DNA from: Minisyncoccota bacterium
Lineage (GTDB): Bacteria; Patescibacteriota; Minisyncoccia; Phycocordibacterales; UBA6065
Assembly: GCA_036400935.1 (NCBI GenBank)
Contig: DASWWW010000002.1
Coordinates: 1 to 61,938 of the forward strand
Direction of reading: 5' to 3'
DNA length: 61,938 bases
The notes beneath the pieces were generated by a model. That model searched no databases. It was not told where the DNA came from and saw only the letters and a program-made list of their open reading frames with translations. The position numbers were made by a program, and so were the translations under genes. How positions within the stretch are numbered: position 1 is the first letter of the stretch; each line of letters begins with the position of its first letter. Shown in pieces: positions 2 to 14,119 of this stretch.

Positions 2-1500
2 GGAACTAGCGCGACAACCACGTCGTTCTTCACGAGCGTCTTCCGCGCCGTGACGGGCAGCATCCAGGACTTCACCTCGACCCTCGCCACGATCGCCGGC
101 CTCAGCGTGACGAACTCCACGACGACGAACGCGACCTCGACCAACCAGTTCGCGACGAACCTTTCCTCGATTAGCGCCTCGTCTACAAGGTCTGATGTTG
201 GCTTTGGAACCACTACGAACTCAACTTCGACTAATCTCTATTCGAGCAATGCGGTATTCGGCGGCGCGACCACGACCGCCTTGAACACCGGCACCCTAAC
301 CGCCGCAAGCAGTACCATTGCGAACGGAACAGTGGGTGGCTTGAATTTCACAAATGCCACGGGTACAAACGCCACGACCACAAACTTCTACGCGACGAAT
401 TTTGCCGCGGCGAACCTCGTTTTCACGAATCAGACTACGGTCAACTCGACGACAACCAACTCGACCTCGACTAATTCGTTCACGACCAATCTCAACGCGA
501 CGAACGGAACGGTGGGGAATCTGCTCTTCACCAACGCTACGGGAACTGCGGCAACCACTACTTCATTCTTCACTAATATATTCCGCGCATTGAGCGGATC
601 GATCGACAATTTCACCTCGACCCTCGCGATTATCGTCGGCCTCAATGTCACGAACTCGACGACAACGAACGCGACGTCGACAAACCAGTTCGTGTCGAAC
701 CTTTTGTCGACCAATTTCACGACTACGAATGGAAACATCGGCTTTGGAACTACTACGAACTCGACCTCGACCAATTCGTTCGCAACAAACCTCACCGCGA
801 CCAACGGAACCGTTGGGAATTTGGCTTTTACGAACGCCACGGGCACGAACGCGACTACGACTTCGTTCTTCTCGACGATCGGACGCCTTACGACGGGCTT
901 CATTGGAACCCTTACTTCGACCCTTGCGAACATCACATCGCTTGTCGCGAGTGATATCACCGTAGGTGCATTGACTGCTACGAACTCGACTACTTCGAAC
1001 GCGACCTCGACAAACCAGTTTGCATCAAATCTTGTTTCGACAAATGGCAGTATCTCGAACCTTGCGTTCACTAACGCGACAGGAACGAATTCTACGACCA
1101 CCAATTCATTCGCTGGGAATCTTACGGCTACAAACGGAAACGTTGGAAATTTGCTCTTTACAAACGCTACGGGCACGGCAGCGACAACCACCTCGTTCTT
1201 CGCGAGCGTATTCCGCGCGGTAGCGGGCTCGATTGACAGCTTTACGTCAACCCTGGCGACAATCGTTGGATTGAACGTTACCAACTCGACTACAACCAAT
1301 GCTACGTCTACAAATTCATTCGCAACGAACCTTGTTTCGACAAATGGCAGCATCTCTAATCTCGCATTCACTAACGCTACCGGTACTAACGCGACGACTA
1401 CGAACTTCTTCTCGTCTACGGCATCGTCGACCAGCCTCTTTGCGACTAACGGAAACGTCGGCAATCTTACGACAAACAACCTCATCGTTAACGGCAACAC
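2..1500 (+). repeat. Asn/Thr/Ser-rich degenerate tandem repeat region of the giant protein, with higher-order units of about 100-180 aa
   Basis: The block SFF(T/A)(S/N)(V/I)FRA(V/L).GSI(Q/D).FTSTLA(T/I)I.GL.VTNSTTTNATSTN(Q/S)F recurs at about nt 23, 565 and 1193, with a diverged copy at about 863. Short units FTNATGTNATTTN recur throughout. Confidence 0.85.
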
Positions 1501-4500
1501 GACTTACACGGGAATAGGTACCACTACGTTCAATGGTGATATCTTTGCGCGGGGCATCGCAGCTTGGCAGTACCTTACGGCTCCAACCCTCCAGGCAACG
1601 TCTACGACAGGTACTTCGACATTCGCCGGAGGTGTCACTGGTCCTGGCGGATTCACCCTCCAGTCGTCTTCAGGACGAGTTGGCGTGGGCACGTCGTCTC
1701 TTTCTTTCGTCGGCAACCCTATCTTTATCGCCGGAGGAGGCAATTCAAACCAGTCGAACAACTTTGTCGTCGACAATGGCGTCTCTGCCGTTAGCAATAG
1801 AAGCCTTGTGGTGAATGGCAATAGGATCAACTCTTATTTCACAAACAGCGCATCTGCCGGCGCGAATCTCGTGCTTCAGGACGCGGGAGGTAACGTCGGC
1901 ATCGGCACGACGAGCCCGACGGGCAAGCTCTCAATCGAGACGAGCACGGGCAATGACGGCGTGTATATCAAGGGTTCGAGCTCCTCGGCGAACGCGGTTC
2001 TGAGGCTGTATAACGACACGGGCACCTTCAACCAGATGCTGACGGTTCGCTCGGGTTCGGGAGACACCGGAAAGTTCTTCTTGCAGACGAACGGCGGCAC
2101 GGTGAACGCTCTCGTCGCCGATTCTTCTGGAAACGTCGGCATCGGCACGACCTCTCCGGGGCAGAAGCTCTCTGTGGCCGGAAACGTGCTCGGTAACAAT
2201 TTCATCGGTACGTATTTCACCGCCACGTCATCTGTGTCAACGTCTACGTTCGCCGGCGCCGTAAAAATCCACGGAGCGATCGACATCCATCGCGGCCCAA
2301 GCTCTGACGACCAGAGCACATTCGTCGGCGCGGGCGCCGGTCAGTTCGCGCAGGCGGGCCCGCACGGCAACACCGCTTTCGGCTTCCAGGCCCTCTCATG
2401 GATATATAACGACGGCGTAACCGTGGCTTCGGGAGGCAGCAACACCGCGATAGGCTATAACTCGATGGCGTCCACGACCTCGGGCAACCACAACACGTGT
2501 CTCGGAAAGTACTCTTGTCAGAACCTCACTACGGGCGAGATGAACGTGGGCCTCGGCAACAGCGCGCTGCGCTTCATCGGCAGTGGTAAGTCGAACGTGG
2601 TCGTGGGGCACAGGGCATCGGGAAGCATGGCGGACACGTCGTATAACGTCGTGATCGGCGACCAGGCAGCCAACGCTTATACGGGCAGCGCGAGCTACGG
2701 AAACATATTCCTCGGCTATGCCGCGGCCTCGACCACTCTTTCGGGTACCAACAACATCATCATTGGAACGGACGCAGCGGCGCCTTTGCCGACCGGTTCG
2801 GGCCAGCTCAACATCGGAAACCTCATCTACGGAACGGGCATCTCGACCACCTCTCCTCGCACTGGCTTTGTCGGTATAGGAACCACAACGCCGGTTGTCA
2901 CCCTCGACGTGTGGGGCTCCGCGTCGACCCTGACCCGTATGAACAACGGCGCCCAGAACCCGGCGTTCAGGCTCCAGAAGGCGCGCGGCTCCTCGGGCGT
3001 GCCTGCAATCATAAACAGCGGCGACGTCCTGGGCGCGCTCGACTTCAGGGGCTTCGACGGGTCGGCCTTCGACACGGGCGCGAGCATCTCGGCTACGTCA
3101 GAGGGCACCATCGGGTCGTCGAACATCCCGGCGTCCCTGATCTTCTCCACGCGCGCGGATGGCGGCTCGTTCGCCGAGAGGATGCGCATTGCCGCGGGCG
3201 GCAACATCGGCATCGGAACATCCAGCCCTTCGGCGGCGCTCTCGGTGTCTGGAAACGCGCTCGTGAGCGGCGACCTTCTTGTTACCGGTTCCGGTACCAG
3301 CACTTTTTCTGGGAATCTGCGCGTAGACGGCAATGTCGAATTCGGCGACAGCGAATTCGACAATATTATCGTGAATGGCGTGGTCGCCGGCGACCTCGTG
3401 CCCGACGTCAACATAGTCCGCAATATCGGTTCGCCGGCATACTATTGGAACGTCGGCTACTTCGACTCGATCAACGTGAACAGCATCTCGGCCGCATCGA
3501 CCACCATCGCGGGCACCGCGTCGAACTCGTTTACGGTGAACTCCGACAACGCGTCATCTGACAGCGAGGACGTCGACCTTATCTTTAAGAGGGGAAGCGT
3601 GACTCCGAACGCGCTTATTTCATGGAACTCTATCCTCGACAAGTTCGACCTCAATCAGCCGACCTTCATCCAGAACGACTCTTCGACGACCACCGTGCCG
3701 ACGCTCGAGCTCCGAAGCCAGGTTGGGCAGCTCGGCGACGTATTCCGCGTTTCGACGACCACCGGATCGTCGTACCTCAACGTCACCTCGAACGGCAACG
3801 TCGGCATCGGTACGACGACCCCTGTTTCTAAATTGCAGGTGTACAGCGGCTCTGCCGGGGCATATACCCTTGCGACTTCGTATGATGATTTCGTGATCGA
3901 AAATTCGACGGCTGCCGGAATGAGCATTGTCAGCCCTGATGCTCAGGCAGCTGGAATACGGTTTAATTCTCCAGGTTCGGGACAATTCGGCTACGGTGGA
4001 GTCTATAGTGACGGATACACCGCAGGCAATATCTCGTTATATACGAACAAGGCAAGCGGTTACCTGACGTTCAATACTGCTGCTAATGTGGAACGAATGA
4101 GGATCGATTCTTCGGGCAACGTCGGTATCGGGACGACGACCCCGGGATCGAGGCTCGACATCACGTCGACCGCTTCTGCCGCCTCGCTCCTCCGTCTCGC
4201 GGCATCGAGCGGCGCGTTCTACTACGATTTCAACCGCGACGGAACGACGGGCGCCCTTACCATCCAGGGAAGCCAGACGGGCAACAACAACATAGCCCTC
4301 GCGCCGACGAGCGGTAACGTGGGCGTCGGAACGACGTCGCCGCAGACAACGCTTGACGTCCGGGCTGCCGCGCCGGTCATAACGGTAGGCACAAACACGG
4401 GAACCCTCGGCTCGCTGTACTTCGGTAACTCTGGCCATGGCCTCAAGAGGAACTACGCCGGTTCGGGAAACAACCTCGGACTGTACACGACGTCAGGCAA

Positions 4501-7500
4501 CATCTACCTTTCGACGACGGGAGACGGCGTTACGAGCCAGTTCGTTATGAGCTCTGCCGGTAATGTCGGCATCGGCACGTCGACGCCGTCGCAGGCGCTT
4601 TCGGTGCAGGGCAGCGGCCTCATCTCGGGGGACCTGAGCCTCGCCAACCTCACAGCGACTGGTACGGCGACCGTGTCGGGCAACATAGTCGTCCCTCTCC
4701 AGGCGAACACCTTCATCGGCAACTCCGTCTCGAACGGCATCAAGTTCGACGGGTCTGGCGTCTATAACCTGTCGACCCACAGCGCGCTTGGCATCGCGAA
4801 CGTGTTCGATACGGACAACAACGGCTCGGGCTCGTTCTTCGTCGGCAAGGGCACGACCGATCCTGATACGGCGACACACCTGTTCGATATTACTAATTCG
4901 GGTAACGTTGGCATCGGCACCACGACTCCGGCATACAAGCTCCATGTGTCGGGAGGCAACGTCGGCATCGACAATGCGAGCGAGTTCGTGATGCGCGATA
5001 CCGCGAACAACAACGGCGGCCGCATCTATTACAGCGCCGGCAACGACCTCACGCTCCAGCAGGGAAACAACGGAAGTGGCTTCGACATCGACTTCGTCGC
5101 CGCAGGAGGCACGCCTCTCAAGATACTGGGAGCAAACGGCAACGTCGGCGTCGGCAGCACCACCCCCGGCTCGCTACTCTCCGTCGGAAACACGAACGGC
5201 ATAAACTTCTCGACGGCGACCTCGACGTTCTCCTCGACCGGCGGCATCAACCTGGCCGCCGGATGCTTCGCCGTCAACGGGACCTGCGTCTCGAACGGCG
5301 GAGCCCTCGGCACGGGAACGACCGGCCAGGTCGCGTATTACAGCTCTGCCAACAACGCGGTGGGAACGTCCTCGCTGTTCATCGCGTCCAGCGGAAACGT
5401 CGGCATCGGCACGACGACGCCGCGCTACAAGCTCGGCATCGACGTCGCCACAGGCACTATTCAGCCTGGAATCGAGCTCAACAACTCGGCGACCAACGCG
5501 ACGGCCGGAAGGGGATCGGGCGTTCTTTTCACGGGCACGGGGTCGAACAACCTGGCTAACATCCAAGGCCACACCTTTACCGCTTCGAACAACAACGGCG
5601 CGCTCAGCTTCCAGACGGCGAACTCGGGAACGCTCTCGACGAGGATGCTCATCGACAGCAACGGATTCGTGGGCATCGGAAGCACGACGCCGAACAACGC
5701 CCTCGTCGCAGAGGACGGCAGCTTCATCCAGGCCGTGTTCAAGGGAACGAACACCGCCCGCACGGGAGCGCTGCAGGTCGTCAACAACGCGGGCGTGGGC
5801 CTCACGCTTCAGACGGCAGCGACGGCATCCGGCCTCTCGGGCCTCGCGGTCGGCGACAGCATGATCTCGTCGAACGGCAACCTCCAGTTCCGTGGCAACG
5901 ATTCGGCGGCGACCGACCGTACGCCGCAGCTCTTCCTTCAGGGCTCGACTGGAAATTTTGGTATCGGCTCCTCGTCGCCGTCGCAGTCTCTCACCGTCGA
6001 GCGAACGACGCTCAACGCGGTCGCGAACCTTCTCGTCAACCAGACGAACGCGAACACTGCTGGTACCGTATCAGTGATCGAGGCGCGCGCCCAGTCCGCC
6101 CGCGAGAGCGCCCTGCGCCTCGGGGACGGCTCTAACTACTGGGAATGGGCAAGGCCATACAACGCAGGAAGCGCGATAACGAGCGTCGCGCTCCGCAGGA
6201 ACGGCACGTCCATGATGACCGTTACCAGCGGCGGCAACGTCGGCATCGGCACCACGTCGCCCAACTGGACTCTAAGCACGGCGGCGTCTTTGGCCACCAT
6301 GGGTGTCCAGGGTTCGGCGAGGTTCGCAAACATGTACGCTGGATCGGGCAGCTCGGGCATCAATTTCGACAGCGCTTCGTACTTCGCGATCGGCGGTTCG
6401 ACGAGCTATAGCGGCACGAACGCGGGCGCCCTCGTTGTATCGGGCGGCGGAAATGTCGGCATAGGCACGACGACGCCCCTTTACAAGCTCAACGTCTATA
6501 ACGGCGCAAGCACCGGCATCGCGGCCCAGATCACGGGCAGCGCCGCAGGAACCCTCACAGACACGGCGCTCGACTTTGCCCTCATGAACGCCGTCGCGGC
6601 CTCGTACGGAAGGATCGGTATCCAGGCCGGTAACGGCTTGACGGGAAGCGAGCGCGGCGACATGTGGTTCGGTACGGTGAACGCAGGGTCTCTTACGGAG
6701 AAGATGAGGATCACTGGCACGGGCAATGTCGGTATCGGCACGACGAGCCCGGCGGCCAAGCTCGACATCTATAAGACGAGCCAGACTTATAACTCTGAGG
6801 GCACGGGCGCGCTCATGCTGAGCAACGGGGCGAGGAGGGTCGAATTCGGCTACGATACCAGCATAGACGCTGGCTATATCGCCGCATACCATTCGGGGAC
6901 GGCGAACAAGAACCTCGTGCTCAACCCTTCGGCGGGCAATGTCGGCATCGGCACGACGAGCCCGAGCGGCCTCCTGGAGGTCGGCAGCTCGTCGGCGAGC
7001 CCGATCAGGTCTTTCGTGACCAACGCGAACAGCGGCACGGGAGCGTACTCGGAACTGGTGGTCAGGAACGGCCTCGCCAATACGGTGGACGACTCGCTCC
7101 GCCTGATGACGATGGGAACCGGCTTCACTACGAGCCAGGGCTTCGTCCAGGACTCCGGCGTGCTGAACGCCGACGCGAACCTCTCCGGCGGCCTCTCGAT
7201 CATGACCCGCAACACGAGCGCGCCGATCAGGTTCTACACTGCGGGAGCTGGCAACGAGCGCATGAGGATCACCGAGGCGGGCAATGTCGGTATCGGCACG
7301 ACGTCGCCGTCGTCGAAGCTCACGGTCGAGGCGAACTCCGCGACGGCGAGCTCCACCATCAGGATTTCGACCTCGAACACGGCCGTCGGCCTAGACGAGG
7401 TCGTGGGCGCTCTCGAGTTCTACAACTCGGACGCAACCCTTCCTGGGGTAGCCGCTTCGATCAGGGCGTACTCTGCTCGACCAAACGGCGCTTCCATCGG

Positions 7501-10500
7501 CCTCCAGTTCCTTACGGGCAACTCGAGCACTCACTCGGAAAGGATGAGGATTGACCAGGCTGGCTATGTCAGCATCGGCACGACCACGACTGCGAGCAAG
7601 CTCACTATTGATGGCAACGGCGGCGCGTTTGAGGGCGTCCTTATCGCGAACAACGACGGTTCCGACATGCTGAGCTTCATAAACAAGAGCTCAAGCTACA
7701 AGGCGTGGTCGTTCTATCCAACAGGCGACGACTTTAAGCTGTTCGAATACGACGCGGGCCAGGCGATCGGCGGCAGCGGCTCTGACAGGTTCGTAGTGAA
7801 GGCCGGAGGCAACGTCGGTATCGGCACGACGAGCCCGTCCGCAAAGCTGGGCGTCGAGGGAGGCGCAGAGTTCAACGGCGCCCTGACCGTCTCTGGCTCG
7901 TACAACGGGATAGGCATACACATCTACCCGAATAACAACCACGCCTTCGGCGGCCTCAACAGCACCGCTTCCGGCAGCTGGAACCTCTCCATGGGCTATA
8001 ACCCTCTGTCTAACGTGACCTCTGGCTACGCGAACCTTGGAGTGGGTCACGGAGTCCTGGGGGCGGTCACGACTGGATCAAGGAATACCGCGCTCGGCGG
8101 CAGCGATCTGTCGGGACCGATGGTGCTCGGCTCGCTTACCACGGGATCGGACAACACGGCTATCGGCTATAGGTCTCTCGGGTCAATCGTCACCGGTGAT
8201 CATAACACCGCCGTTGGCGTGTATGCCGGAGACCAGCAGACTGGGGGAATGCGCAACATCATGATCGGCTATAACGCGCAGGTGGCGTCCTCGACGGCAA
8301 GCGACCAGCTTTCCATCGGCAACTGGATATACGGAACCAGCGGAAGGATCGGAATAGGGACCACGACGCCGGGGCTTAACTCGGAGCGGCTGACGGTGTT
8401 CAACTCGTCTGGCAATTATGCGCTTCGCGCCGCCGGATCCTCAGGATACGCGTCATTGGTCGGCGCGGGCTCGGGATACGCTCTGGTCCAAGGTTCAGAC
8501 AACGTCGGCGCCACCGCGGCGCTGTCGCTCCAGCCGGTTGGCGGCAATGTCGGCGTCGGTACCACCACCCCTACGAAGAAGCTCCAGGTCTACACGACCA
8601 CCTCGACGGACGGCATATCGGTGAACACCAACGGCGCCACGAGCGTGGCGTACAGCCTCATGCAGAACGGAACTGCCAAGTCTTACCTCGGCGTCGTCGG
8701 CGCCTCGGGCGAGTGGTCCGTCGGGTCGTCAGTGGGCGACACGGTGCTCCGCGCCGAGAACCAGAGGCTCATGTTCAACACGAACGGTGGCGGCGCCACC
8801 GCGATGACGATCGGCGCGACGGGAAGCGTCGGAATCGGCACCACCACTCCGGCGACGCTGCTCTCGCTTGGATCCGCTACGGGCAACAAGCTCGCCCTCT
8901 GGGAGGACGGCACCAACCGCTATGGCTTCGGCATCCAGACCAACCTCCTGCAGGTCTATACGCCGAACTCGTCTGGCGCCATCGGATTCGGCACGGGCAA
9001 CAGCTCGAGCTTCACGCAGAACGTGACGATTACGGGCGCTGGCAACGTCGGTATCGGCACGACGACCCCAGCGCAGAAGCTCGACGTAAACGGCAGCGTC
9101 GTGCTCAACAATAACAACTCATACATCATCAGGGACACCGCGTTCGCTAACGCGTTTACACTCACGTATACGAACGCCAACGTCGCTCGAATCAGGCAGG
9201 CGAACAACGGCCAGCTCGATATTGCGGCGGGCTTCTCGTCTAACGTCAACGCCGCCATCACCTTCAGCACCAGCGGCCTCAACGAGCGCATGAGGATCGA
9301 CGGCCTCGGCAACGTAGGAATCGGCACGTCGACGCCTGTCTCGACCCTCTCGGTCCAGGGATCGCTCTGCGTGCGCGACACCGGATCGTGTGGAACGACC
9401 GCGGGCACCATCTATGCGACGACGGCGTCCATCACCGACATCGACCTCGCCGAGAATTATCCGACCCTCGACGGCACGCTGTCGGCGGGCGAGATCGTGT
9501 CGCTCGACACTACAGCATCTACCACTATCAAGCGCGCGGCCCAGGGCGAAAAGGTCCTCGGTATTGTTTCGACCGCCCCAGGCCTCCTTCTGGGCAAGGA
9601 GCTTCCGAACTCGAAGCCTGTCGCTCTCAGCGGCCGCGTTCCGGTCAAGGTCAACGGCGAGAACGGCGACATCCAGATCGGCGACAAGATCGCGCTGTCG
9701 ACGACAGCGGGCGTCGGCCGCAAGGCGGCAGGATCGGAGGAGACGGTCGGTACGGCGCTCGAGGCGTGGTCAGGCGGTCCGCTCGACCAGGGTACTATTG
9801 TCGTGTTCGTGGCGAACAAGCAGGAGTTCAAGGCGGACCAGTTCAAGATCGACGCGTCGGGCAACGTCGGCGTCGGCATTACCGGTACCACGAGCCCTTC
9901 ATACAAGCTTCAAGTTAATGGCGATATTGCGGCGACGTCGTTCGTCAACGTATCGACCCGCGACTCAAAGCACGATATAAACTACATCGACGACGCTACA
10001 AAGGCCGGCATGCTCGCGAAGCTCAAGTCTATCGGCGTAGCGACGTACCGCTACAATACCGAGTCGGATTCGGCTCCTCTCCGCATGGGGTTGATCGCCG
10101 AGGAGGCTCCTGCCGAGGTCCTTGCGGCTGGCGGAAAGGGCGTCGACGTGTACAAGCTCTCGACCTTCATCCTTGCTGGCGTCCAGGAACTTGATCGAAG
10201 GTTCGAATCGCTCGCGGTGAAAGTTGATCAGAATACCGCAAGCATCGCGGCTATCAATGCCGAGCTTGCCTCGACTACCGCAGCTCTCGTCGACCTCCAG
10301 AACCGCCTCGCCCTCGCCGCGGCTGATCCTGCGGCGGCGGGAGCGACATCGACGGCTTCGACCACTATCGTCTGGTCATCTGATTTTGCCGCCTCGCTCG
10401 TCTCGTTCTTCGAGACCGCTGGATTGAAGCTCGCTGACGGTGTCGCTTACATCAAGAGCGCTATCGTCGAGACTTTGACTGCGAACGTGGCTTATATCAA

Positions 10501-10975
10501 AAACGCGGCAATCGAGTCGGCGTCGGTAGGCGCGCTCGAGGTAGGCAGCTCAGACAAGAGGGCGGGCATCACCCTCTATGACGAGATCACCGGCCAGCCG
10601 TACTGTCTCAAGATATCGGGCGGTCAGACGGTAAATACATTTGGCGCTTGCGTGCCTCTTCGCGGCCCGGCTGACGGAATCGTAAATACCGGTGGCGACG
10701 CTAACGGCGCGAATCCTGGCGGCGACAACGGAACTGCGGATGACCATCTTGGAAGCGGTACCGAAAGCGCGCCTGAAAGCGGAACCACGACTCCTGACGT
10801 GGTCGAGGGAGGGGACGCGGGAGGATCTGGCGATACGGGCACCACGACCCCTGACGGCACACCTGACCTGGAGCCTGAAACCACCCCTGAGCCGGAGGTC
10901 GCTGTAGATCCGGCGCCGACTCCGGTCTCAGTCCCAGAGACTACTCCTGAAGCGGCCCCCGCAGAGACGATTTAA
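2..10975 (+). CDS. Giant fibre/adhesin-like surface protein, 5'-partial (>3,657 aa; ORF is open to the window edge)
   Basis: Frame 2 is open from nt 2. The residues before the listed GTG at 50 (GTSATTTSFFTSVFRAVTGS) match the internal repeat seen again at about nt 565 and 1193, so the gene continues upstream. Stop is at 10973-10975. Contains about 27 GNVGIGTT(S/T)P..KLxV motifs and an S74-like domain. No TM segment is seen in the part present. Confidence 0.9.
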   Translation, partial: GTSATTTSFFTSVFRAVTGSIQDFTSTLATIAGLSVTNSTTTNATSTNQFATNLSSISASSTRSDVGFGTTTNSTSTNLYSSNAVFGGATTTALNTGTLTAASSTIANGTVGGLNFTNATGTNATTTNFYATNFAAANLVFTNQTTVNSTTTNSTSTNSFTTNLNATNGTVGNLLFTNATGTAATTTSFFTNIFRALSGSIDNFTSTLAIIVGLNVTNSTTTNATSTNQFVSNLLSTNFTTTNGNIGFGTTTNSTSTNSFATNLTATNGTVGNLAFTNATGTNATTTSFFSTIGRLTTGFIGTLTSTLANITSLVASDITVGALTATNSTTSNATSTNQFASNLVSTNGSISNLAFTNATGTNSTTTNSFAGNLTATNGNVGNLLFTNATGTAATTTSFFASVFRAVAGSIDSFTSTLATIVGLNVTNSTTTNATSTNSFATNLVSTNGSISNLAFTNATGTNATTTNFFSSTASSTSLFATNGNVGNLTTNNLIVNGNTTYTGIGTTTFNGDIFARGIAAWQYLTAPTLQATSTTGTSTFAGGVTGPGGFTLQSSSGRVGVGTSSLSFVGNPIFIAGGGNSNQSNNFVVDNGVSAVSNRSLVVNGNRINSYFTNSASAGANLVLQDAGGNVGIGTTSPTGKLSIETSTGNDGVYIKGSSSSANAVLRLYNDTGTFNQMLTVRSGSGDTGKFFLQTNGGTVNALVADSSGNVGIGTTSPGQKLSVAGNVLGNNFIGTYFTATSSVSTSTFAGAVKIHGAIDIHRGPSSDDQSTFVGAGAGQFAQAGPHGNTAFGFQALSWIYNDGVTVASGGSNTAIGYNSMASTTSGNHNTCLGKYSCQNLTTGEMNVGLGNSALRFIGSGKSNVVVGHRASGSMADTSYNVVIGDQAANAYTGSASYGNIFLGYAAASTTLSGTNNIIIGTDAAAPLPTGSGQLNIGNLIYGTGISTTSPRTGFVGIGTTTPVVTLDVWGSASTLTRMNNGAQNPAFRLQKARGSSGVPAIINSGDVLGALDFRGFDGSAFDTGASISATSEGTIGSSNIPASLIFSTRADGGSFAERMRIAAGGNIGIGTSSPSAALSVSGNALVSGDLLVTGSGTSTFSGNLRVDGNVEFGDSEFDNIIVNGVVAGDLVPDVNIVRNIGSPAYYWNVGYFDSINVNSISAASTTIAGTASNSFTVNSDNASSDSEDVDLIFKRGSVTPNALISWNSILDKFDLNQPTFIQNDSSTTTVPTLELRSQVGQLGDVFRVSTTTGSSYLNVTSNGNVGIGTTTPVSKLQVYSGSAGAYTLATSYDDFVIENSTAAGMSIVSPDAQAAGIRFNSPGSGQFGYGGVYSDGYTAGNISLYTNKASGYLTFNTAANVERMRIDSSGNVGIGTTTPGSRLDITSTASAASLLRLAASSGAFYYDFNRDGTTGALTIQGSQTGNNNIALAPTSGNVGVGTTSPQTTLDVRAAAPVITVGTNTGTLGSLYFGNSGHGLKRNYAGSGNNLGLYTTSGNIYLSTTGDGVTSQFVMSSAGNVGIGTSTPSQALSVQGSGLISGDLSLANLTATGTATVSGNIVVPLQANTFIGNSVSNGIKFDGSGVYNLSTHSALGIANVFDTDNNGSGSFFVGKGTTDPDTATHLFDITNSGNVGIGTTTPAYKLHVSGGNVGIDNASEFVMRDTANNNGGRIYYSAGNDLTLQQGNNGSGFDIDFVAAGGTPLKILGANGNVGVGSTTPGSLLSVGNTNGINFSTATSTFSSTGGINLAAGCFAVNGTCVSNGGALGTGTTGQVAYYSSANNAVGTSSLFIASSGNVGIGTTTPRYKLGIDVATGTIQPGIELNNSATNATAGRGSGVLFTGTGSNNLANIQGHTFTASNNNGALSFQTANSGTLSTRMLIDSNGFVGIGSTTPNNALVAEDGSFIQAVFKGTNTARTGALQVVNNAGVGLTLQTAATASGLSGLAVGDSMISSNGNLQFRGNDSAATDRTPQLFLQGSTGNFGIGSSSPSQSLTVERTTLNAVANLLVNQTNANTAGTVSVIEARAQSARESALRLGDGSNYWEWARPYNAGSAITSVALRRNGTSMMTVTSGGNVGIGTTSPNWTLSTAASLATMGVQGSARFANMYAGSGSSGINFDSASYFAIGGSTSYSGTNAGALVVSGGGNVGIGTTTPLYKLNVYNGASTGIAAQITGSAAGTLTDTALDFALMNAVAASYGRIGIQAGNGLTGSERGDMWFGTVNAGSLTEKMRITGTGNVGIGTTSPAAKLDIYKTSQTYNSEGTGALMLSNGARRVEFGYDTSIDAGYIAAYHSGTANKNLVLNPSAGNVGIGTTSPSGLLEVGSSSASPIRSFVTNANSGTGAYSELVVRNGLANTVDDSLRLMTMGTGFTTSQGFVQDSGVLNADANLSGGLSIMTRNTSAPIRFYTAGAGNERMRITEAGNVGIGTTSPSSKLTVEANSATASSTIRISTSNTAVGLDEVVGALEFYNSDATLPGVAASIRAYSARPNGASIGLQFLTGNSSTHSERMRIDQAGYVSIGTTTTASKLTIDGNGGAFEGVLIANNDGSDMLSFINKSSSYKAWSFYPTGDDFKLFEYDAGQAIGGSGSDRFVVKAGGNVGIGTTSPSAKLGVEGGAEFNGALTVSGSYNGIGIHIYPNNNHAFGGLNSTASGSWNLSMGYNPLSNVTSGYANLGVGHGVLGAVTTGSRNTALGGSDLSGPMVLGSLTTGSDNTAIGYRSLGSIVTGDHNTAVGVYAGDQQTGGMRNIMIGYNAQVASSTASDQLSIGNWIYGTSGRIGIGTTTPGLNSERLTVFNSSGNYALRAAGSSGYASLVGAGSGYALVQGSDNVGATAALSLQPVGGNVGVGTTTPTKKLQVYTTTSTDGISVNTNGATSVAYSLMQNGTAKSYLGVVGASGEWSVGSSVGDTVLRAENQRLMFNTNGGGATAMTIGATGSVGIGTTTPATLLSLGSATGNKLALWEDGTNRYGFGIQTNLLQVYTPNSSGAIGFGTGNSSSFTQNVTITGAGNVGIGTTTPAQKLDVNGSVVLNNNNSYIIRDTAFANAFTLTYTNANVARIRQANNGQLDIAAGFSSNVNAAITFSTSGLNERMRIDGLGNVGIGTSTPVSTLSVQGSLCVRDTGSCGTTAGTIYATTASITDIDLAENYPTLDGTLSAGEIVSLDTTASTTIKRAAQGEKVLGIVSTAPGLLLGKELPNSKPVALSGRVPVKVNGENGDIQIGDKIALSTTAGVGRKAAGSEETVGTALEAWSGGPLDQGTIVVFVANKQEFKADQFKIDASGNVGVGITGTTSPSYKLQVNGDIAATSFVNVSTRDSKHDINYIDDATKAGMLAKLKSIGVATYRYNTESDSAPLRMGLIAEEAPAEVLAAGGKGVDVYKLSTFILAGVQELDRRFESLAVKVDQNTASIAAINAELASTTAALVDLQNRLALAAADPAAAGATSTASTTIVWSSDFAASLVSFFETAGLKLADGVAYIKSAIVETLTANVAYIKNAAIESASVGALEVGSSDKRAGITLYDEITGQPYCLKISGGQTVNTFGACVPLRGPADGIVNTGGDANGANPGGDNGTADDHLGSGTESAPESGTTTPDVVEGGDAGGSGDTGTTTPDGTPDLEPETTPEPEVAVDPAPTPVSVPETTPEAAPAETI
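2363..2830 (+). other. YadA-head/Hep_Hag-like degenerate repeat block A within the giant protein
   Basis: Successive N(T/V)(A/C)(F/I/L)G...A(L/N) units: HGNTAFGFQAL, SNTAIGYNSM, HNTCLGKYS, MNVGLGNSAL, SNVVVGHRAS, YNVVIGDQAA, GNIFLGYAAA, NNIIIGTDAA, ending in QLNIGNLIYGT. Confidence 0.5.
7937..8345 (+). other. YadA-head/Hep_Hag-like degenerate repeat block B within the giant protein
   Basis: NHAFGGLNS, WNLSMGYNPL, ANLGVGHGVL, RNTALGGSDL, DNTAIGYRSL, HNTAVGVYAG, RNIMIGYNAQ, ending in QLSIGNWIYGT. Same architecture and same terminal motif as block A. Confidence 0.5.
9953..10215 (+). other. Peptidase-S74-type intramolecular chaperone / auto-cleavage domain (tail-fibre and endosialidase C-terminal type)
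   Basis: S-TRDS-K-HDINYI...LKSIGVATYRYN...RMGLIAEEAPAEVL...VDVYKLSTFILAGVQELDRR fits the SDxxxK...GxIAQEV...Y..L pattern. The Ser (9953) to Lys (9968) spacing is i+5, as in the endosialidase chaperone domain. Confidence 0.75.
10685..10972 (+). other. Low-complexity Gly/Asp then Pro/Thr/Glu-rich C-terminal tail of the giant protein
   Basis: NTGGDANGANPGGDNGTADD...TTTPDGTPDLEPETTPEPEVAVDPAPTPVSVPETTPEAAPAETI. Confidence 0.85.
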
Positions 10976-10982
10976 GCAAAAT

Positions 10983-11013
10983 AGCCAAGATTACCTTGGT
11001 TATTTTCGTTTTT
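10983..11013 (+). terminator. Weak candidate intrinsic terminator after the giant gene
   Basis: agccaag-attac-cttggtt hairpin (7 bp including one G-U) followed by attttcgttttt. Confidence 0.4.
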
Positions 11014-11040
11014 GGCAATACCTATTCTTGCAGGAAGGTC

Positions 11041-11071: not shown

Positions 11072-12109
11072 ATGGCAACAAAAAAAATCAGGGTGGCAAT
11101 CAACGGATTCGGCAGGATCGGACGCGCTTTTCTAAAGGTGGCTCGGGAGAATGACGCTATTGAGGTAGTGGCTGTAAATGACCTCGGCAATGCGGCTAAC
11201 CTCGCATACCTCCTCAAATACGACTCGGCATACGGAGTGAGCCCTTTCGAGGTCTCCGCGAAGGCTGACGGCAAAGCCCTTGTCGTTGACGGCAGGGAGA
11301 TAGCTTTCATTCAGGAGAAGGATGCCACAAAGCTTCCGTGGAAGGCTCTTGATATCGATGTCGTTGTCGAGTCGACAGGCCTCTTTACCGATTTTGCCAA
11401 GGCTAAAGTCCATATGGATGCGGGAGCGAAGCGCGTGGTAATCAGCGCGCCCGCAAAGGGCGACGCCGCCTCGGAGGCGATGGGAGCGACTATACTCATG
11501 GGCCTCAACGAGGACCGATTTAAGGGAGTCTCTATCACGTCGAATGCCTCGTGTACCACGAACGCAGGATCGCCCCTCATGGCCATCCTCGACGAGAAGA
11601 TCGGCATCCATAAGGCCGTGCTCAATACCGTTCACGCCTATACCGCCAGCCAGGCAATCGTAGACGGACCATCGAAGAAGGACCTCCGAGAGGGCCGCGC
11701 CGCAGCCATGAACATCGTGCCTTCGTCTACCGGCGCCGCCATCGCCGTAGCAAAGGCATTGCCTCAGCTTTCAGGCAAGTTTGACGGCATATCTATCCGC
11801 GTGCCGGTCGTCGTCGGCTCGATCGTGGACATCACTTTCATCGCCAAGAGGAAGACGTCGGCAGAGGAAGTCAATCAGATTCTGCGCGACGCGGCAAAGC
11901 AGGACCGATGGAAGAACATTTTCGCCGCGTCCGACGAGCCTCTCGTGTCGTCGGATATCAAGGGCAATCCTCACGCCTCGATCGCCGACCTTGAGATGAC
12001 GCGCGTCGTCGACGGAGACTTGGTAAAAGTCCTCGGCTGGTATGACAACGAGATGGGGTATACGCACACGCTCGTGCAGCATGTGATCAAGGCGGCGAAT
12101 CAGATATAG
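11072..12109 (+). CDS. gap: Glyceraldehyde-3-phosphate dehydrogenase, type I
   Basis: N-terminal INGFGRIGR Rossmann motif and active-site SNASCTTN; 345 aa. Confidence 0.95.
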   Translation: MATKKIRVAINGFGRIGRAFLKVARENDAIEVVAVNDLGNAANLAYLLKYDSAYGVSPFEVSAKADGKALVVDGREIAFIQEKDATKLPWKALDIDVVVESTGLFTDFAKAKVHMDAGAKRVVISAPAKGDAASEAMGATILMGLNEDRFKGVSITSNASCTTNAGSPLMAILDEKIGIHKAVLNTVHAYTASQAIVDGPSKKDLREGRAAAMNIVPSSTGAAIAVAKALPQLSGKFDGISIRVPVVVGSIVDITFIAKRKTSAEEVNQILRDAAKQDRWKNIFAASDEPLVSSDIKGNPHASIADLEMTRVVDGDLVKVLGWYDNEMGYTHTLVQHVIKAANQI

Positions 12110-12120
12110 ATGAAATAAAA

Positions 12121-12144
12121 AAGGCTCCGCGAATGCGGGGCCTT
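12121..12144. terminator. Bidirectional hairpin between gap and the convergent hypothetical gene
   Basis: aaggctccgc-gaat-gcggggcctt (10 bp, one G-U), with an A-run upstream. The better T-tail is on the minus strand. Confidence 0.55.
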
Positions 12145-12575
12145 TACGTTGATGTCGGCGGGACAACCGTGACCGCGAGGCTTTTCCTAAAGTCTCCCGC
12201 ACTCTGTTCGTCGTCATCGCATATGAAGTGTGCCGACCAGGATCCGTGCCGGTCCCGATAGATTTCAGTGATGGCAATCTTTGTGTCGCGAGAAAGCTTT
12301 TTCCCTCTTAGCTCCGGACAGTCCGGCAAGCAGGGATAGTCACCCAGACGCGCAACGATGTGGAAATTGTTGTAATCAAAGACTATCAACTCGGGAGTTA
12401 GTGTGACTATCGGTATAAGCGGGCGCCACACAGCCGGCAGAATCTGGCGGTTTCTGAATAGCCGCAGTGTGATGTGCAGACTGCAGCGGCGCAGATCCGA
12501 CAACTTCATCTCAAAGGGCTTGAGCAGGGCCTCGATTTGACGATCGCTAGGCTCTCCTGGTATTGGATAACTCAT
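12144..12575 (-). CDS. Hypothetical protein (143 aa)
   Basis: The only long ORF in the 500-nt gap between gap and rpiB, with plausible codon composition. No confident family match. Confidence 0.4.
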   Translation of the reverse strand: MSYPIPGEPSDRQIEALLKPFEMKLSDLRRCSLHITLRLFRNRQILPAVWRPLIPIVTLTPELIVFDYNNFHIVARLGDYPCLPDCPELRGKKLSRDTKIAITEIYRDRHGSWSAHFICDDDEQSAGDFRKSLAVTVVPPTST

Positions 12576-12604
12576 GCTGTATCCGATTATGCACTTTTGT
12601 GCTG

Positions 12605-12610
12605 TATAAT
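12605..12610 (+). promoter_or_regulatory. -10 box TATAAT 7 nt upstream of the rpiB ATG (leaderless-type geometry)
   Basis: tataat-caaatat-ATG. No Shine-Dalgarno sequence is possible in 7 nt. Confidence 0.45.
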
Positions 12611-12617
12611 CAAATAT

Positions 12618-13070
12618 ATGAAAATTTTTATTGCGTCAGATCATGCGGGGTTCGAGCTCAAGCGATTTTTAGTCGAGAGGCTCTCGCTGGGAGGGCATGA
12701 GGTAAAGGATCTCGGAGCTCCGAAGTTCGATCCTGAAGACGACTATCCGGATTTCATCTCGCTTGTCGGAAAGGAGGTCTCGCACAATCCCTCGGGCGTC
12801 CGCGGCATCGTCATTGGCGGCTCGGGCCAAGGCGAGGCGATCTGCGCGAACAAATTCTACGGCGTCCGCGCCGCCGCGTACTATGGGGGCAATATGGATA
12901 TCGTGCGGCTGTCCCGGGAGCACAATGATGCGAACGTCTTGTCTCTTGGCGCGCGCTTCGTCTCGCCGACTGACGCCCTCAGCGCCGTTACGGTGTGGCT
13001 CGCCACGCCTTTTTCCGGCGACGAAAGGCACAAGAGGCGCATTAACAAGCTCTATGTCGCGGGCAAATAG
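12618..13070 (+). CDS. rpiB: Ribose-5-phosphate isomerase B (RpiB/LacAB family)
   Basis: MKIFIASDHAGFELK..., GIVIGGSGQGEAICANK, NVLSLGARF. I chose the internal ATG at 12618 over the listed upstream start at 12474. Confidence 0.9.
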   Translation: MKIFIASDHAGFELKRFLVERLSLGGHEVKDLGAPKFDPEDDYPDFISLVGKEVSHNPSGVRGIVIGGSGQGEAICANKFYGVRAAAYYGGNMDIVRLSREHNDANVLSLGARFVSPTDALSAVTVWLATPFSGDERHKRRINKLYVAGK

Positions 13071-13566: not shown

Positions 13567-13580
13567 CGTACAATAGGAGC

Positions 13581-14102: not shown

Positions 14103-14119
14103 CACATAATAAAATTGTC

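What the first reader, a model, noticed from the sequence alone, without database searches (positions are those of the whole stretch)
2..10975. 11-kb, 5'-truncated giant fibre-like ORF (>3,657 aa)
Seen: one uninterrupted reading frame runs from the window edge to 10975 (18% of the window). Its first residues repeat an internal unit, so the gene is longer than what is visible. It combines five parts: (i) an Asn/Thr/Ser-rich repeat region; (ii) about 27 copies of the motif G-N-V-G-I-G-T-T-(S/T)-P-x-x-K-L-x-V, spaced roughly 70-150 aa apart and often preceded by ERMRI; (iii) two YadA-head-like blocks; (iv) a peptidase-S74-type chaperone domain; (v) a coiled coil and a Pro/Thr/Glu tail. Established: the ERMRI..GNVGIGT..KL.V motif together with S74 is the signature of trimeric tail-fibre or endosialidase-like fibres. 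Inference: this is a cell-surface or phage-derived trimeric fibre of extreme length. In a reduced, pilin-rich genome it is a plausible host-attachment organelle.
Basis: partly seen in the sequence, partly recalled or inferred. Interest (0 to 1): 0.75.

Follow-up and report, generated by a model that had tools for sequence, protein, structure and literature searches.

The report
Giant phage-fibre-like surface protein (Patescibacteria)
The 11-kb open frame is real and encodes most of a giant surface fibre built from phage tail-fibre parts; it belongs to a very large, little-studied family that ultra-small Patescibacteria keep at a fixed chromosomal position and probably use to reach and grip other cells.

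Summary
Window 2-10975 (+) is one open frame of 3,657 codons that runs off the 5' edge. It carries 27 G-N-V-G-I-G-T-type motifs (0.04 expected by shuffling) and a Peptidase_S74 domain above Pfam's cutoff.

It is a chromosomal gene of a Patescibacteria (Paceibacterota/Parcubacteria-type) genome, not a prophage gene.

- **Shaft:** the modules match the solved Bdellovibrio MAT fibres (PDB 8OL4, E 3e-10) and cyanophage tail fibres.
- **Tip:** a phi29-gp12-type barrel is followed by an S74 intramolecular chaperone with an intact Ser3318/Lys3323 pair, a long helix, a Cys-pair domain and an acidic Pro/Thr tail.
- **"YadA-head" blocks:** these are 17-residue Asn-ladder repeats with no Hep_Hag, PDB or Foldseek support.

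Extreme length is normal for the family. The search found 48,483 cluster representatives, with members up to 7,725 aa.

In about 36 of 79 Patescibacteria loci the fibre gene lies just upstream of gap-rpiB-rpe-tkt, as it does here.

Complete relatives that share the Asn/Thr/Ser repeats start with a cytoplasmic HTH_17 domain and one membrane helix. That anchor differs from the MAT anchor. The missing 5' end could not be recovered.

Most likely function, by inference: a membrane-anchored, trimeric, self-processing adhesion fibre at least 0.2 µm long.

The parts
2..10975 (+). 5'-truncated giant fibre gene (3,657 codons plus stop); the N-terminus lies outside the window
   Evidence: 100% identical independent Logan contig L001 over window 1072-13111
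2..1561 (+). Asn/Thr/Ser-rich repeat stalk (aa 1-520). It has a ~30-aa period nested in ~190-250-aa super-repeats, and 7.7 N-x-S/T sequons per 100 aa
   Evidence: Its few homologues (12) are Patescibacteria proteins; those with complete N-termini start with HTH + TM
1673..9361 (+). Fibre shaft (aa 558-3120): ~25 beta-rich modules, each closed by a G-N-V-G-I-G-T-T-x-P-x-x-K-L-x-V capping-loop motif
   Evidence: 27 motifs against 0.04 by chance. phmmer to PDB 8ol4_A E 3e-10, 8ond_A 1.3e-6, 8oml_A 5.2e-6. PHROG tail-fibre families down to E 3e-30. Cyanophage tail fibres at 33-41% identity
2954..3286 (+). Module aa 985-1095, the best match to a solved structure (Bd2439 fibre region, PDB 8OL4)
   Evidence: alignment; identity of the PDB entry from PMC10769870
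2363..2836 (+). Repeat block 1 (aa ~788-945): 17-residue Asn-ladder repeats (N-T-A-x-G-x-x-A-L-x-x-N-T-T-G-x-x), a probable beta-solenoid insert
   Evidence: 17-residue autocorrelation; conserved Asn every 17 columns in alignment A2; strands every ~17 residues in the AF2 model; no Hep_Hag, PDB or Foldseek match
7934..8371 (+). Repeat block 2 (aa ~2645-2790), same 17-residue repeat type
   Evidence: (phrog_4636, 6002 and 23837)
9443..9826 (+). phi29-gp12-type (Peptidase_G2-like / DUF2190-like) beta-barrel (aa 3148-3275), beginning with D3148-L-A-E3151. It is either the distal knob or a second autochaperone
   Evidence: PF11962 24.1 bits against a cutoff of 25. phmmer alignment to the first residues of 3gqh_A. 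AF2 pLDDT above 90. Foldseek 3gqh_A E 3.3e-6 with TMt 0.58. BFVD preneck appendage barrel E 3e-12
9860..9916 (+). Last capping motif (aa 3287-3305, SGNVGVGITGTTSPSYKLQV), immediately before the S74 site
   Evidence: aligns to the Bd3182 capping loop in the profile search
9953..10336 (+). Peptidase_S74 intramolecular chaperone (aa 3318-3445). The predicted scissile and nucleophilic Ser3318 is at nt 9953-9955 and Lys3323 at nt 9968-9970. Includes a 59-residue helix (aa 3383-3441)
   Evidence: PF13884 27.3 bits against a cutoff of 22. S-x4-K spacing as in T5 pb1 S1264/K1269. Foldseek MyRF ICA 7dc3 E 0.026 with TMt 0.55. Helix
10424..10666 (+). Conserved post-chaperone beta domain with a Cys pair (aa ~3475-3555; G-I-T-L-Y-D-E-I-T-G-Q-P-Y-C3535 ... 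G-A-C3550)
   Evidence: Conserved in relatives P0003, P0051, P0090 and L003; model pLDDT 84-88; Cys positions
10682..10972 (+). Acidic Pro/Thr/Gly-rich C-terminal tail (aa 3561-3657) with no K or R and no hydrophobic anchor
10978..11016 (+). Terminator-like hairpin (12-bp stem) plus T-run, 3 nt after the stop codon
   Evidence: consensus scan only
11072..17848 (+). Conserved downstream neighbourhood: gap, rpiB, three pilin genes, rpe and split transketolase (tktN, tktC)
   Evidence: Pfam; the same order is found downstream of the fibre gene in ~36 of 79 Patescibacteria loci and in L002

Best explanation
The frame encodes the C-terminal 3,657 or more residues of a chromosomally encoded giant surface fibre of a Patescibacteria (Paceibacterota/Parcubacteria-type) bacterium. 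It belongs to a Patescibacteria branch of the phage-tail-fibre / Bdellovibrio MAT (mosaic adhesive trimer) fibre superfamily.

**Shown here.**
- The shaft is a chain of ~25 modules homologous to the intertwined beta-helix modules of solved MAT fibres and of cyanophage tail fibres. Each module ends in the capping-loop motif.
- Two 17-residue Asn-ladder blocks are inserted in the shaft.
- The distal end carries a phi29-gp12-type barrel and then an S74 intramolecular chaperone with the Ser/Lys pair intact.
- The gene sits at a conserved chromosomal position next to gap-rpiB-rpe-tkt.
- Relatives are equally large.

**Inferred from the known S74 mechanism (K1F endosialidase, T5 pb1, Bd3182).** Three chains associate at the C-terminal helices of the chaperone. 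The chaperone then templates folding of the triple beta-helix towards the N-terminus. Correct trimerisation triggers cleavage before Ser3318. This releases the ~340-residue C-terminal piece and exposes the gp12-like knob and last capping loop as the distal tip.

**Inferred from complete relatives.** The missing N-terminus is probably a cytoplasmic HTH_17 domain plus one membrane helix (N-in, C-out). The heavily sequon-rich Asn/Thr/Ser stalk and the shaft would then project at least ~0.2 µm from the cell. That figure extrapolates from ~0.7 Å per residue in Bd3182.

**Inferred function.** Long-range recognition of, and adhesion to, a host or partner cell surface, most likely a glycan.
For: **Reality of the gene.** The frame is open. 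The independent contig L001 is identical.

**Fibre homology.**
- PDB 8ol4_A E 3e-10, 8ond_A and 8oml_A. These entries are Bdellovibrio MAT fibres.
- 23 capping-loop motifs against 0.055 expected by chance.
- PHROG tail-fibre families down to E 3e-30.
- Cyanophage tail fibres.

**S74.**
- Pfam score above the cutoff.
- S3318/K3323 spaced as in T5 pb1.
- Foldseek match to the MyRF ICA domain.

**gp12-type barrel.**

**Cellular rather than phage.**
- Housekeeping neighbours.
- Fibre followed by gap-rpiB-rpe-tkt synteny in ~36 of 79 loci, including a complete genome.
- No match in 2.9 M viral contigs.

**Family size and lengths.**

**Anchor.**
- HTH_17/MerR scores above Pfam cutoffs, plus a hydrophobic helix, in relatives. 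These include all five complete relatives that share the Asn/Thr/Ser repeats (P0122, P0124, P0126, P0129, P0292) and the syntenic L031.
- The eight Cys form four close pairs, which fits an extracellular location.
Against: - The N-terminus of this gene is not in the window and could not be recovered. Anchoring and export are therefore inferred from relatives, and about half of the relatives with recognisable N-termini use a signal-peptide-type start instead.
- Trimerisation, autocleavage and surface display were not testable.
- The monomer AF2 model of a shaft piece was poor (pLDDT 65) and had no significant Foldseek match.
- The S74 motif reads S-T-R-D-S-K rather than the S-D-x-x-x-K consensus quoted for MAT proteins.
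- Sequence-level PDB matches of the S74 core are weak.
- No direct evidence bears on the ligand or on a host-attachment role.
Confidence: 0.72

Rival explanations
1. It is a phage or prophage tail fibre or tailspike gene (a virion component) that happens to lie in this contig.
For: - All recognisable parts are phage-fibre parts: PHROG tail-fibre families, S74 and the gp12-type barrel.
- The modules are shared with cyanophage tail fibres.
- Several gene calls in relatives lack a signal peptide.
Against: - No phage gene occurs in the 51 kb downstream.
- The locus is syntenic with gap-rpiB-rpe-tkt across ~36 divergent Patescibacteria genomes.
- Complete relatives carry HTH+TM or signal-anchor N-termini.
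- The Patescibacteria-type S74 cassette was not found in IMG/VR.
- Lengths of 3,000-7,700 aa exceed those of known virion fibres.
Confidence: 0.05
2. It is a structural envelope component, such as a glycosylated surface coat, spacer or S-layer-associated fibre that shapes or protects the cell. It would not be a specific host-recognition adhesin.
For: - It occupies a conserved, core-like chromosomal position in many lineages.
- The sequon-rich Asn/Thr/Ser stalk suggests heavy glycosylation.
- Nearly every genome sampled has at least one such gene.
Against: - The shaft is non-collinear even in the closest genome (GAPDH 88% identical). The tip segments are mosaic, each with a different closest relative. 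This pattern is typical of receptor-binding proteins rather than of structural coats.
- The solved homologues are adhesins.
Confidence: 0.15
3. It is a trimeric autotransporter adhesin (YadA/Hia type), as the "YadA-head-like" blocks would imply.
For: - The blocks are Asn-ladder repeats with an N-T-A-x-G signature that resembles Hep_Hag repeats.
- UniRef names some Bacteroidota relatives "YadA-like head".
- One relative (P0075) carries a precomputed PF05658 hit.
Against: - There is no Hep_Hag hit even at E<=10, no PDB sequence hit and no Foldseek hit.
- The repeat period is 17 residues. From my own knowledge, YadA head repeats are ~14 residues.
- There is no YadA_anchor: the C-terminus is S74 plus an acidic tail.
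- From general knowledge, Patescibacteria lack an outer membrane into which an anchor could insert.
Confidence: 0.02
4. The giant frame is an assembly artefact (repeat collapse or chimera) or a decaying pseudogene.
For: - The contig breaks inside the repeats, and so do L001, L002 and many related contigs.
- The relative L003 carries frameshifted copies.
Against: - 3,657 codons have no stop.
- Internal DNA repeats are at most 83% identical, and the longest exact repeat is 26 bp.
- The Logan assembly agrees at 100%.
- Catalytic and motif residues are conserved.
Confidence: 0.04

Closest known systems
Bdellovibrio bacteriovorus MAT (mosaic adhesive trimer) fibres: Bd2439, Bd2133, Bd1334, Bd3182 (Caulton et al. 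2024, PMC10769870)
   Same: - The shaft modules are sequence-homologous (8OL4 E 3e-10, 8OND, 8OML).
- The capping-loop motif V-G-G/N-pi-x-x-P-x-x-x-L is the same.
- An S74 C-terminus occurs in one MAT subfamily.
- The gene is chromosomal, in a bacterium that lives on other bacteria.
- The evolution is mosaic.
   Different: - This protein is at least 3.5-7 times longer than the ~1,000-aa MAT proteins.
- MAT proteins start with a signal peptide and a conserved ~130-aa beta-rich domain. Patescibacteria relatives start with HTH_17 + TM, or with a different signal-anchor domain.
- It has extra parts: the Asn/Thr/Ser stalk, the 17-residue blocks, the gp12-type barrel before S74, and the Cys-pair domain and acidic tail after S74.
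- The S74 motif reads S-T-R-D-S-K rather than S-D-x-x-x-K.
Phage S74 fibres and spikes: K1F endosialidase (3GW6) and T5 L-shaped tail fibre pb1 (4UW8)
   Same: - A C-terminal Peptidase_S74 intramolecular chaperone follows a triple beta-helix.
- The Ser/Lys pair has +5 spacing.
- A long C-terminal helix is present.
   Different: - This protein is not part of a virion.
- About 215 further residues follow the chaperone.
- The fold match to 3GW6 is weak (E 0.4).
phi29 gp12 pre-neck appendage autochaperone (Peptidase_G2; 3GQH, 3SUC)
   Same: - The fold of aa 3148-3275 matches (Foldseek E 3.3e-6, TMt 0.58).
- The domain starts with D-x-A-E, as the 3GQH chain does.
   Different: - Here the barrel is internal and followed by S74, not terminal.
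- The Pfam score is just below the cutoff (24.1 against 25).
- Whether it cleaves is unknown.
- The same fold also matches phage head-decoration proteins.
Myelin regulatory factor (MyRF) ICA domain (7DC3)
   Same: - It is an S74-type trimerisation-dependent self-cleaving domain in a membrane-tethered protein that also has a DNA-binding domain.
- Foldseek E 0.026, TMt 0.55.
   Different: In MyRF the S74 domain lies between the DNA-binding domain and the membrane helix, so cleavage frees the transcription factor. In the Patescibacteria fibres S74 lies thousands of residues away on the outside, so it cannot release the HTH.
Cyanophage tail fibres (S-TIM5, S-CBP1/2/3, S-B05 and others)
   Same: They are the only cultured-phage matches to the shaft module: 33-41% identity in 34 records.
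   Different: They are virion proteins of ordinary size encoded in phage genomes.

Membership tests
Peptidase_S74 intramolecular chaperone (K1F endosialidase / T5 pb1 type) | Match to Pfam PF13884 at or above the gathering score | tested here: met
   26.1 and 27.3 bits against a cutoff of 22, aa 3320-3371
Peptidase_S74 intramolecular chaperone (K1F endosialidase / T5 pb1 type) | Catalytic Ser and Lys five residues apart at the start of the domain (S-D-x-x-x-K) | tested here: met
   S3318-T-R-D-S-K3323. The spacing matches T5 S1264/K1269. The Asp at +1 is replaced by Thr, and the consensus of the Patescibacteria relatives is S-T-R-x-x-K
Peptidase_S74 intramolecular chaperone (K1F endosialidase / T5 pb1 type) | Fold similarity to solved IMC/ICA domains | tested here: inconclusive
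   Foldseek 7dc3 (MyRF ICA) E 0.026 with TMt 0.55; 3gw6 E 0.4. The profile search against PDB gave only 7dc3 at E 0.45
Peptidase_S74 intramolecular chaperone (K1F endosialidase / T5 pb1 type) | Trimerisation-dependent autoproteolysis | not testable with these tools
   Needs expression of the wild-type fragment against S3318A/K3323A
MAT fibre superfamily (Caulton et al. 2024) | Shaft homologous to the intertwined beta-helix modules, with the capping-loop motif | tested here: met
   8ol4_A E 3e-10, 8ond_A 1.3e-6, 8oml_A 5.2e-6; 23 motif copies against 0.055 by chance
MAT fibre superfamily (Caulton et al. 2024) | Signal peptide followed by the conserved ~130-aa beta-rich N-terminal domain | not testable with these tools
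   The 5' end is missing and was not recovered. Complete Patescibacteria relatives have HTH_17+TM or a different signal-anchor start, so the feature is probably not met. For this reason I file it as MAT-like, not as a MAT family member
MAT fibre superfamily (Caulton et al. 2024) | C-terminal S74 or an alternative adhesive tip domain | tested here: met
   S74 is present, preceded here by a gp12-type barrel
MAT fibre superfamily (Caulton et al. 2024) | Homotrimer along the whole length | not testable with these tools
   Only monomer AF2 was available; the shaft model was poor
Trimeric autotransporter adhesin (YadA/Hia) | Hep_Hag / YadA-head repeats | tested here: not met
   No PF05658 hit at E<=10 on either block; no PDB hit; no Foldseek hit; period 17
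Trimeric autotransporter adhesin (YadA/Hia) | C-terminal YadA-type membrane anchor | tested here: not met
   The C-terminus is S74 + Cys-pair domain + acidic tail, with no anchor family hit and no hydrophobic segment
phi29 gp12-type autochaperone (Peptidase_G2, PF11962) | Pfam match at the gathering score | tested here: inconclusive
   24.1 bits against a cutoff of 25, covering profile positions 38-99 of 228
phi29 gp12-type autochaperone (Peptidase_G2, PF11962) | Fold of the C-terminal barrel | tested here: met
   3gqh_A E 3.3e-6, TMt 0.58, rmsd 3.6; BFVD preneck appendage barrel E 3e-12. The fold is shared with head-decoration proteins
phi29 gp12-type autochaperone (Peptidase_G2, PF11962) | Terminal position and self-cleavage at the domain start | tested here: not met
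   The position is internal, with S74 following. Cleavage is not testable, although the D-x-A-E start is conserved in relatives
Phage virion tail fibre | Encoded within a phage or prophage structural gene cluster | tested here: not met
   Housekeeping neighbours and conserved cellular synteny; no viral-contig match. The upstream side was not seen

The most novel reading that the evidence does not exclude
The giant fibre may be more than an adhesin: it could be the outside half of a one-component transmembrane signalling device.

In complete relatives a MerR/excisionase-type HTH sits in the cytoplasm. It is joined by a single membrane helix to thousands of residues of extracellular fibre. That topology resembles ToxR/CadC, with a fibre at least 0.2 µm long as the sensor.

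Contact or tension on the fibre when a host cell is caught could then be relayed directly to DNA binding. This would switch an ultra-small epibiont between free and attached programmes, or tether the nucleoid at the attachment site.

For the window's own gene this rests on the unseen N-terminus being of the HTH+TM type.
Probability: 0.1. Interest if true: 0.85.

Novelty: new variant of a known kind. Interest (0 to 1): 0.55.

Why it matters
How ultra-small Patescibacteria find and hold their host cells is largely unknown outside a few cultured Saccharibacteria, where type IV pili are implicated (abstract listed).

This gene exemplifies a very large family: 48,483 cluster representatives. Its members are giant proteins, encoded at a fixed chromosomal position and built from phage receptor-binding parts.

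Three features make the family a concrete candidate for host-range determination in Paceibacteria:
- the tip segments are mosaic, each with a different closest relative;
- the shafts are non-collinear even between close genomes;
- the C-terminal folding cassette is comparatively conserved.

The work gives testable handles: the S3318/K3323 cleavage site, the gp12-type knob as a probable ligand-binding tip, and an unusual HTH+TM anchor in relatives. It extends the MAT fibre concept from predatory Bdellovibrio to a whole bacterial radiation.

In six full-text searches I found no paper describing these Patescibacteria fibres (with related reading). Databases label them only "tail fiber domain-containing" or "hypothetical".

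The individual gene is nevertheless an ordinary member of its family, and its function is inferred.

Tried and rejected
**Searches that gave nothing or failed.**
- The whole-protein homologue search timed out.
- I tried to recover the 5' end in two ways. The Logan contig L001 stops even earlier than the window. Pattern scans of genome contigs and metagenome contigs with aa 500-1100 found no relative.
- Alignment A1 was too diverse for a locus scan. It was replaced by the S74 core alignment A3.
- NCBIfam gave no hits on any tile.
- No tRNA, tmRNA or Rfam element occurs in the window.
- PF26696, which is precomputed on relatives, is absent from the Pfam copy at hand, so it could not be named.

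**Readings tested and rejected.**
- The YadA-head reading was tested with Pfam at E<=10, with PDB phmmer and with AF2 plus Foldseek. All were negative.
- Diversity-generating retroelement: no template/variable-repeat-like DNA match links the gene to the rest of the window, and none of the downstream ORFs put through Pfam was a reverse transcriptase.
- Prophage: no phage genes lie downstream, and no viral-contig relatives of the cassette were found.
- eCIS (extracellular contractile injection system) tail fibre: no eCIS genes are in the window.
- Repeat collapse: rejected on DNA self-comparison and the identical independent contig.
Full report
**1. Observation**

Window 2-10975 (+) translates to 3,657 residues followed by a single stop. 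The ORF listing reports it from the first GTG as 50..10975, 3,641 aa. This truncated call is itself in the public protein library (P0253).

The frame runs off the 5' edge inside a repeat. Nt 1-235 match nt 541-775 at 74% identity, and nt 11-163 match nt 1181-1333 at 73%. The gene is therefore longer than the window shows.

- Residues 1-~520 are 54-55% Asn+Thr+Ser, with a 30-residue period and 7.7 N-x-S/T sequons per 100 aa, against 1.2 elsewhere.
- The G-N-V-G-I-G-T-type motif occurs 27 times, against 0.04 expected in 1,000 shuffles. Of these, 23 are full capping-loop-type motifs (0.055 expected) and 10 match the strict consensus.
- E[RK]MRI occurs six times, so "often preceded by ERMRI" is too strong.
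- Two further repeat blocks, at aa ~788-945 and ~2645-2790, have a 17-residue period.
- Peptidase_S74 scores 26-27 bits against a cutoff of 22.
- A 59-residue helix and an acidic Pro/Thr/Gly tail without Lys or Arg close the protein.

The sequence is unlikely to be a repeat-collapse artefact. The longest exact internal DNA repeat is 26 bp, and the best internal repeat reaches 83% identity over 60 bp. An independent Logan contig (SRR11449181) is 100% identical over 12,040 bp.

**2. Genome context**

Downstream lie GAPDH, RpiB, three N_methyl pilins, Rpe, a split transketolase, DnaB, CysS, a CtpA-type protease, further aminoacyl-tRNA synthetases, MurG, FtsW, a D-Ala-D-Ala carboxypeptidase and ABC transporters. 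No phage gene, tRNA or Rfam element is present.

Homologues of the C-terminal 558 residues are almost all from Patescibacteria MAGs: Paceibacterota, Parcubacteria, Kaiser-, Taylor- and Niyogibacteria. A scan of one genome per GTDB species with the S74 core found 79 loci, essentially all Patescibacteria. The closest genomes by housekeeping genes are Paceibacterota MAGs: GAPDH is 88% identical in L009 and DnaB 84% in L006. A terminator-like hairpin follows the stop codon.

**3. What the parts are**

*Shaft.* phmmer of the whole protein against PDB sequences gave three hits, all "cell wall surface anchor family protein" chains. They are 8OL4 (E 3e-10, aa 985-1095), 8OND (Bd2133) and 8OML. These entries are the Bdellovibrio bacteriovorus MAT (mosaic adhesive trimer) fibres of Caulton et al. 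2024.

That paper describes the fibres as intertwined trimeric beta-helix fibres. Their edges are closed by capping loops with the motif V-G-G/N-pi-x-x-P-x-x-x-L. Their C-termini are either an S74 chaperone or other adhesive domains.

PHROG tail-fibre families match every tile of the shaft, down to E 3e-30. Among cultured phages, only cyanophage tail fibres match the module, at 33-41% identity in 34 records.

*17-residue blocks.* Pfam gives no Hep_Hag hit even at E<=10, and PDB phmmer gives nothing. The AF2 monomer model (pLDDT 65) shows short strands every ~17 residues but has no significant Foldseek match. Related blocks occur in Bacteroidota proteins that UniRef calls "YadA-like head". That is a name, not a test. 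I treat the blocks as Asn-ladder solenoid inserts of unresolved fold.

*Tip.* An AF2 model of aa 3085-3590 was built on 38 aligned relatives (pLDDT 74; above 90 for two domains).
- For aa ~3148-3275, Foldseek matches the phi29 gp12 C-terminal autochaperone (3GQH E 3.3e-6, TMt 0.58; 3SUC) and phage head-decoration proteins.
- For the S74 part, it matches the MyRF ICA domain (E 0.026, TMt 0.55).
- In BFVD, preneck-appendage barrels reach E 3e-12, and many S74 phage fibres also match.
- The barrel begins D3148-L-A-E, which aligns with the first residues (D-F-A-E) of the 3GQH chain. D-x-A-E-x-Y is conserved in relatives. The Pfam Peptidase_G2 score is just below the cutoff, at 24.1 against 25.
- One more capping motif follows at aa 3287-3305.
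- Next comes the S74 site, V|S3318-T-R-D-S-K3323. The Ser-to-Lys spacing matches T5 pb1, where cleavage falls at T1263|S1264 and the lysine is K1269. The Asp of the S-D-x-x-x-K consensus is replaced by Thr throughout the Patescibacteria clade.
- Behind the chaperone helix lies a small beta domain with a conserved Cys pair (G-I-T-x-Y-D-x-x-T-G-x-P-Y-C ... G-x-C), which relatives share.
- The acidic tail comes last.

All eight cysteines form four close pairs.

**4. The family**

phmmer of aa 1231-2430 against 1.84 billion cluster representatives found 48,483 proteins at E<=1e-3, 12,216 at E<=1e-10 and 998 at E<=1e-30. Among the best 150 the median length is 2,628 aa, 41 are at least 3,657 aa long, and the longest has 7,725 aa.

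In the 79 genome loci, the ORF carrying the S74 core is 1,100-3,500 aa long when it is complete. In seven mid-contig loci it is still open 10 kb upstream, so it exceeds 3,660 aa. Giant size is thus the family norm. Most copies are cut by contig ends.

*Synteny.* In ~36 of the 79 loci the fibre gene is followed by gap, rpiB, rpe, tktN and tktC, as in the window. GAPDH identity across these loci ranges from 58% to 88%. Examples are L002 and the complete genome CP174360 (L031).

*Mosaicism.*
- Against L009, the closest genome, the knob is 86% identical but S74 only 56%.
- Against L002 the knob is 54%, S74 80% and the post-chaperone domain 84%.
- Against L004 the last ~400 residues are 69% identical.
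- Shafts are non-collinear everywhere, with only ~30% module-level similarity.

The Patescibacteria-type S74 cassette was not found in 2.9 million viral contigs.

**5. The missing N-terminus**

It could not be recovered.

Homologues of the Asn/Thr/Ser region are few: 12, all from Patescibacteria. The four of them with complete N-termini all begin the same way. An HTH-like segment (..G-R-S-W-Y-V..) comes first, then a Lys/Arg-rich linker and one hydrophobic helix, and then the repeats. The helix was confirmed by hydropathy scan in three of the four.

HTH_17 or MerR passes Pfam's own cutoffs in several giant members. P0292 scores 34 bits; it is 4,420 aa long and has HTH, TM, Asn/Thr/Ser repeats, modules and S74. 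P0285 scores 62 bits, P0261 and P0270 score 53-55 bits for MerR, and the Kaiserbacteria locus L076 scores 35 bits. Scores are weaker in the others.

An HMM built here from these segments finds the HTH in 28 of the 150 best representatives (1,990-7,634 aa). It also finds it in seven complete loci, including the syntenic gene of the complete genome CP174360. Another 28 representatives and four loci begin instead with a signal-peptide-like segment and a Q-I-N-Y-Q-G-K-L-T-D domain.

The window's gene therefore most probably has an HTH_17+TM anchor. This is an inference, and it differs from the MAT N-terminus described.

The relative L003 shows the full layout, split by indels into 850-aa and 1,914-aa pieces, next to a second paralogous fibre gene.

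**6. Mechanism**

*Shown:* the parts list, the homologies, the catalytic residues, the synteny and the family sizes.

*Inferred from K1F, T5 and Bd3182.*
- The C-terminal helices nucleate a trimer.
- The chaperone templates the triple beta-helix from the C-terminus towards the N-terminus.
- Correct trimerisation triggers cleavage before Ser3318, which frees a ~340-residue fragment.
- The gp12-type knob and the last capping loop then become the distal tip.
- Whether the knob also self-cleaves at D3148 is open.

*Inferred length:* Bd3182 is modelled at ~550 Å, with cleavage at residue 782, which is ~0.7 Å per residue. The 3,317 visible mature residues would then span roughly 0.2 µm. From my own knowledge, that is about the diameter of such cells.

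*Inferred function:* recognition of, and adhesion to, partner-cell surfaces. The mosaic tip and fast-changing shaft fit a receptor-binding role better than a purely structural one.

**7. Rivals**

- Prophage fibre (0.05), trimeric autotransporter (0.02) and artefact or pseudogene (0.04) are disfavoured by the tests above.
- A structural, glycosylated coat fibre without specific adhesion (0.15) cannot be excluded.
- The most novel reading is that the HTH-TM-fibre architecture is a ToxR-like contact sensor. Nothing excludes it, but nothing here supports it (about 0.1).

**8. Novelty and verdict**

The kind is known: S74-matured phage-type fibres, and MAT fibres in Bdellovibrio. The Patescibacteria version is a distinct variant in five respects:
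- giant size;
- an Asn/Thr/Ser stalk;
- a gp12-type barrel stacked before S74;
- a conserved post-chaperone Cys domain;
- an HTH+TM anchor in relatives, at a conserved chromosomal locus.

Full-text searches found no description of it. Papers on other Patescibacteria note only that very large proteins tend to be surface-targeted. The individual gene is an ordinary, truncated member of this family, and its function is inferred. Interest 0.55.

Noticed in passing
window 11072-17848; loci L002, L004, L006, L009, L017, L031 and ~30 others: The order giant fibre gene, gap, rpiB, rpe, tktN, tktC (split transketolase) is conserved across ~36 of 79 Patescibacteria loci, with GAPDH only 58-88% identical. 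That is an unexpectedly stable linkage between a fast-evolving surface gene and sugar-phosphate metabolism genes.
   Followed up: partly
window 12763-14569: Three genes with the prokaryotic N-methylation (type IV pilin) motif are interleaved with rpiB and rpe. The first ORF (12763-13566) overlaps rpiB, and its pilin motif sits at residue 100, so its true start is probably near nt 13050. In the syntenic locus L002 one pilin carries a Laminin_G_3 lectin-like domain, and two Laminin_G_3 genes sit between the fibre gene and gap.
   Followed up: partly
window 2001-10000 against the rest: The fibre gene is 60-62.5% G+C, against 47-56% for the rest of the window. This is probably a composition effect of Gly, Ala and Thr codons. 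A foreign origin was not tested.
   Followed up: no
window 54001-60000: The last ~8 kb has a lower G+C (47-48%) and includes a GT4 glycosyltransferase (54549-55676). It may be a surface-polysaccharide or glycosylation island, which would be relevant to the sequon-rich stalk.
   Followed up: no
L003 2528-18564 (ENA ERZ25039529 contig_26968): Two tandem paralogous giant fibre genes have near-identical C-terminal ends. Both are split into pieces. In the second, a ~270-nt stretch with stops lies between two copies of the NVGIGTT-coding 20-mer. This could reflect long-read indel errors, decay, or recombination at the motif.
   Followed up: partly
relatives P0086, P0100, P0101: Some Patescibacteria relatives join a Hint/intein-type domain (PF14890) directly to a capping motif and the S74 cassette. 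This is a different N-terminal partner for the same C-terminal module.
   Followed up: no
relatives P0006, P0009-P0024, P0292 and others: Many relatives carry DUF5011 (PF16403, Ig-like) domains after the S74 chaperone, on the part that would be cleaved off. The window's protein has the Cys-pair domain there instead. The cleaved C-terminal fragment may therefore have a function of its own.
   Followed up: no
window aa 833/839, 1755/1762, 3123/3130, 3535/3550: All eight cysteines of the 3,657 residues occur as four close pairs. The pair at 3123/3130 (L-C-V-x-x-x-T-x-x-C-G) is conserved in relatives, just before the gp12-type barrel.
   Followed up: partly
window 45292-46305, 51406-52377, 38832-39740, 48445-49038: Four ORFs of 197-337 aa have no Pfam match at E<=1e-3.
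   Followed up: no
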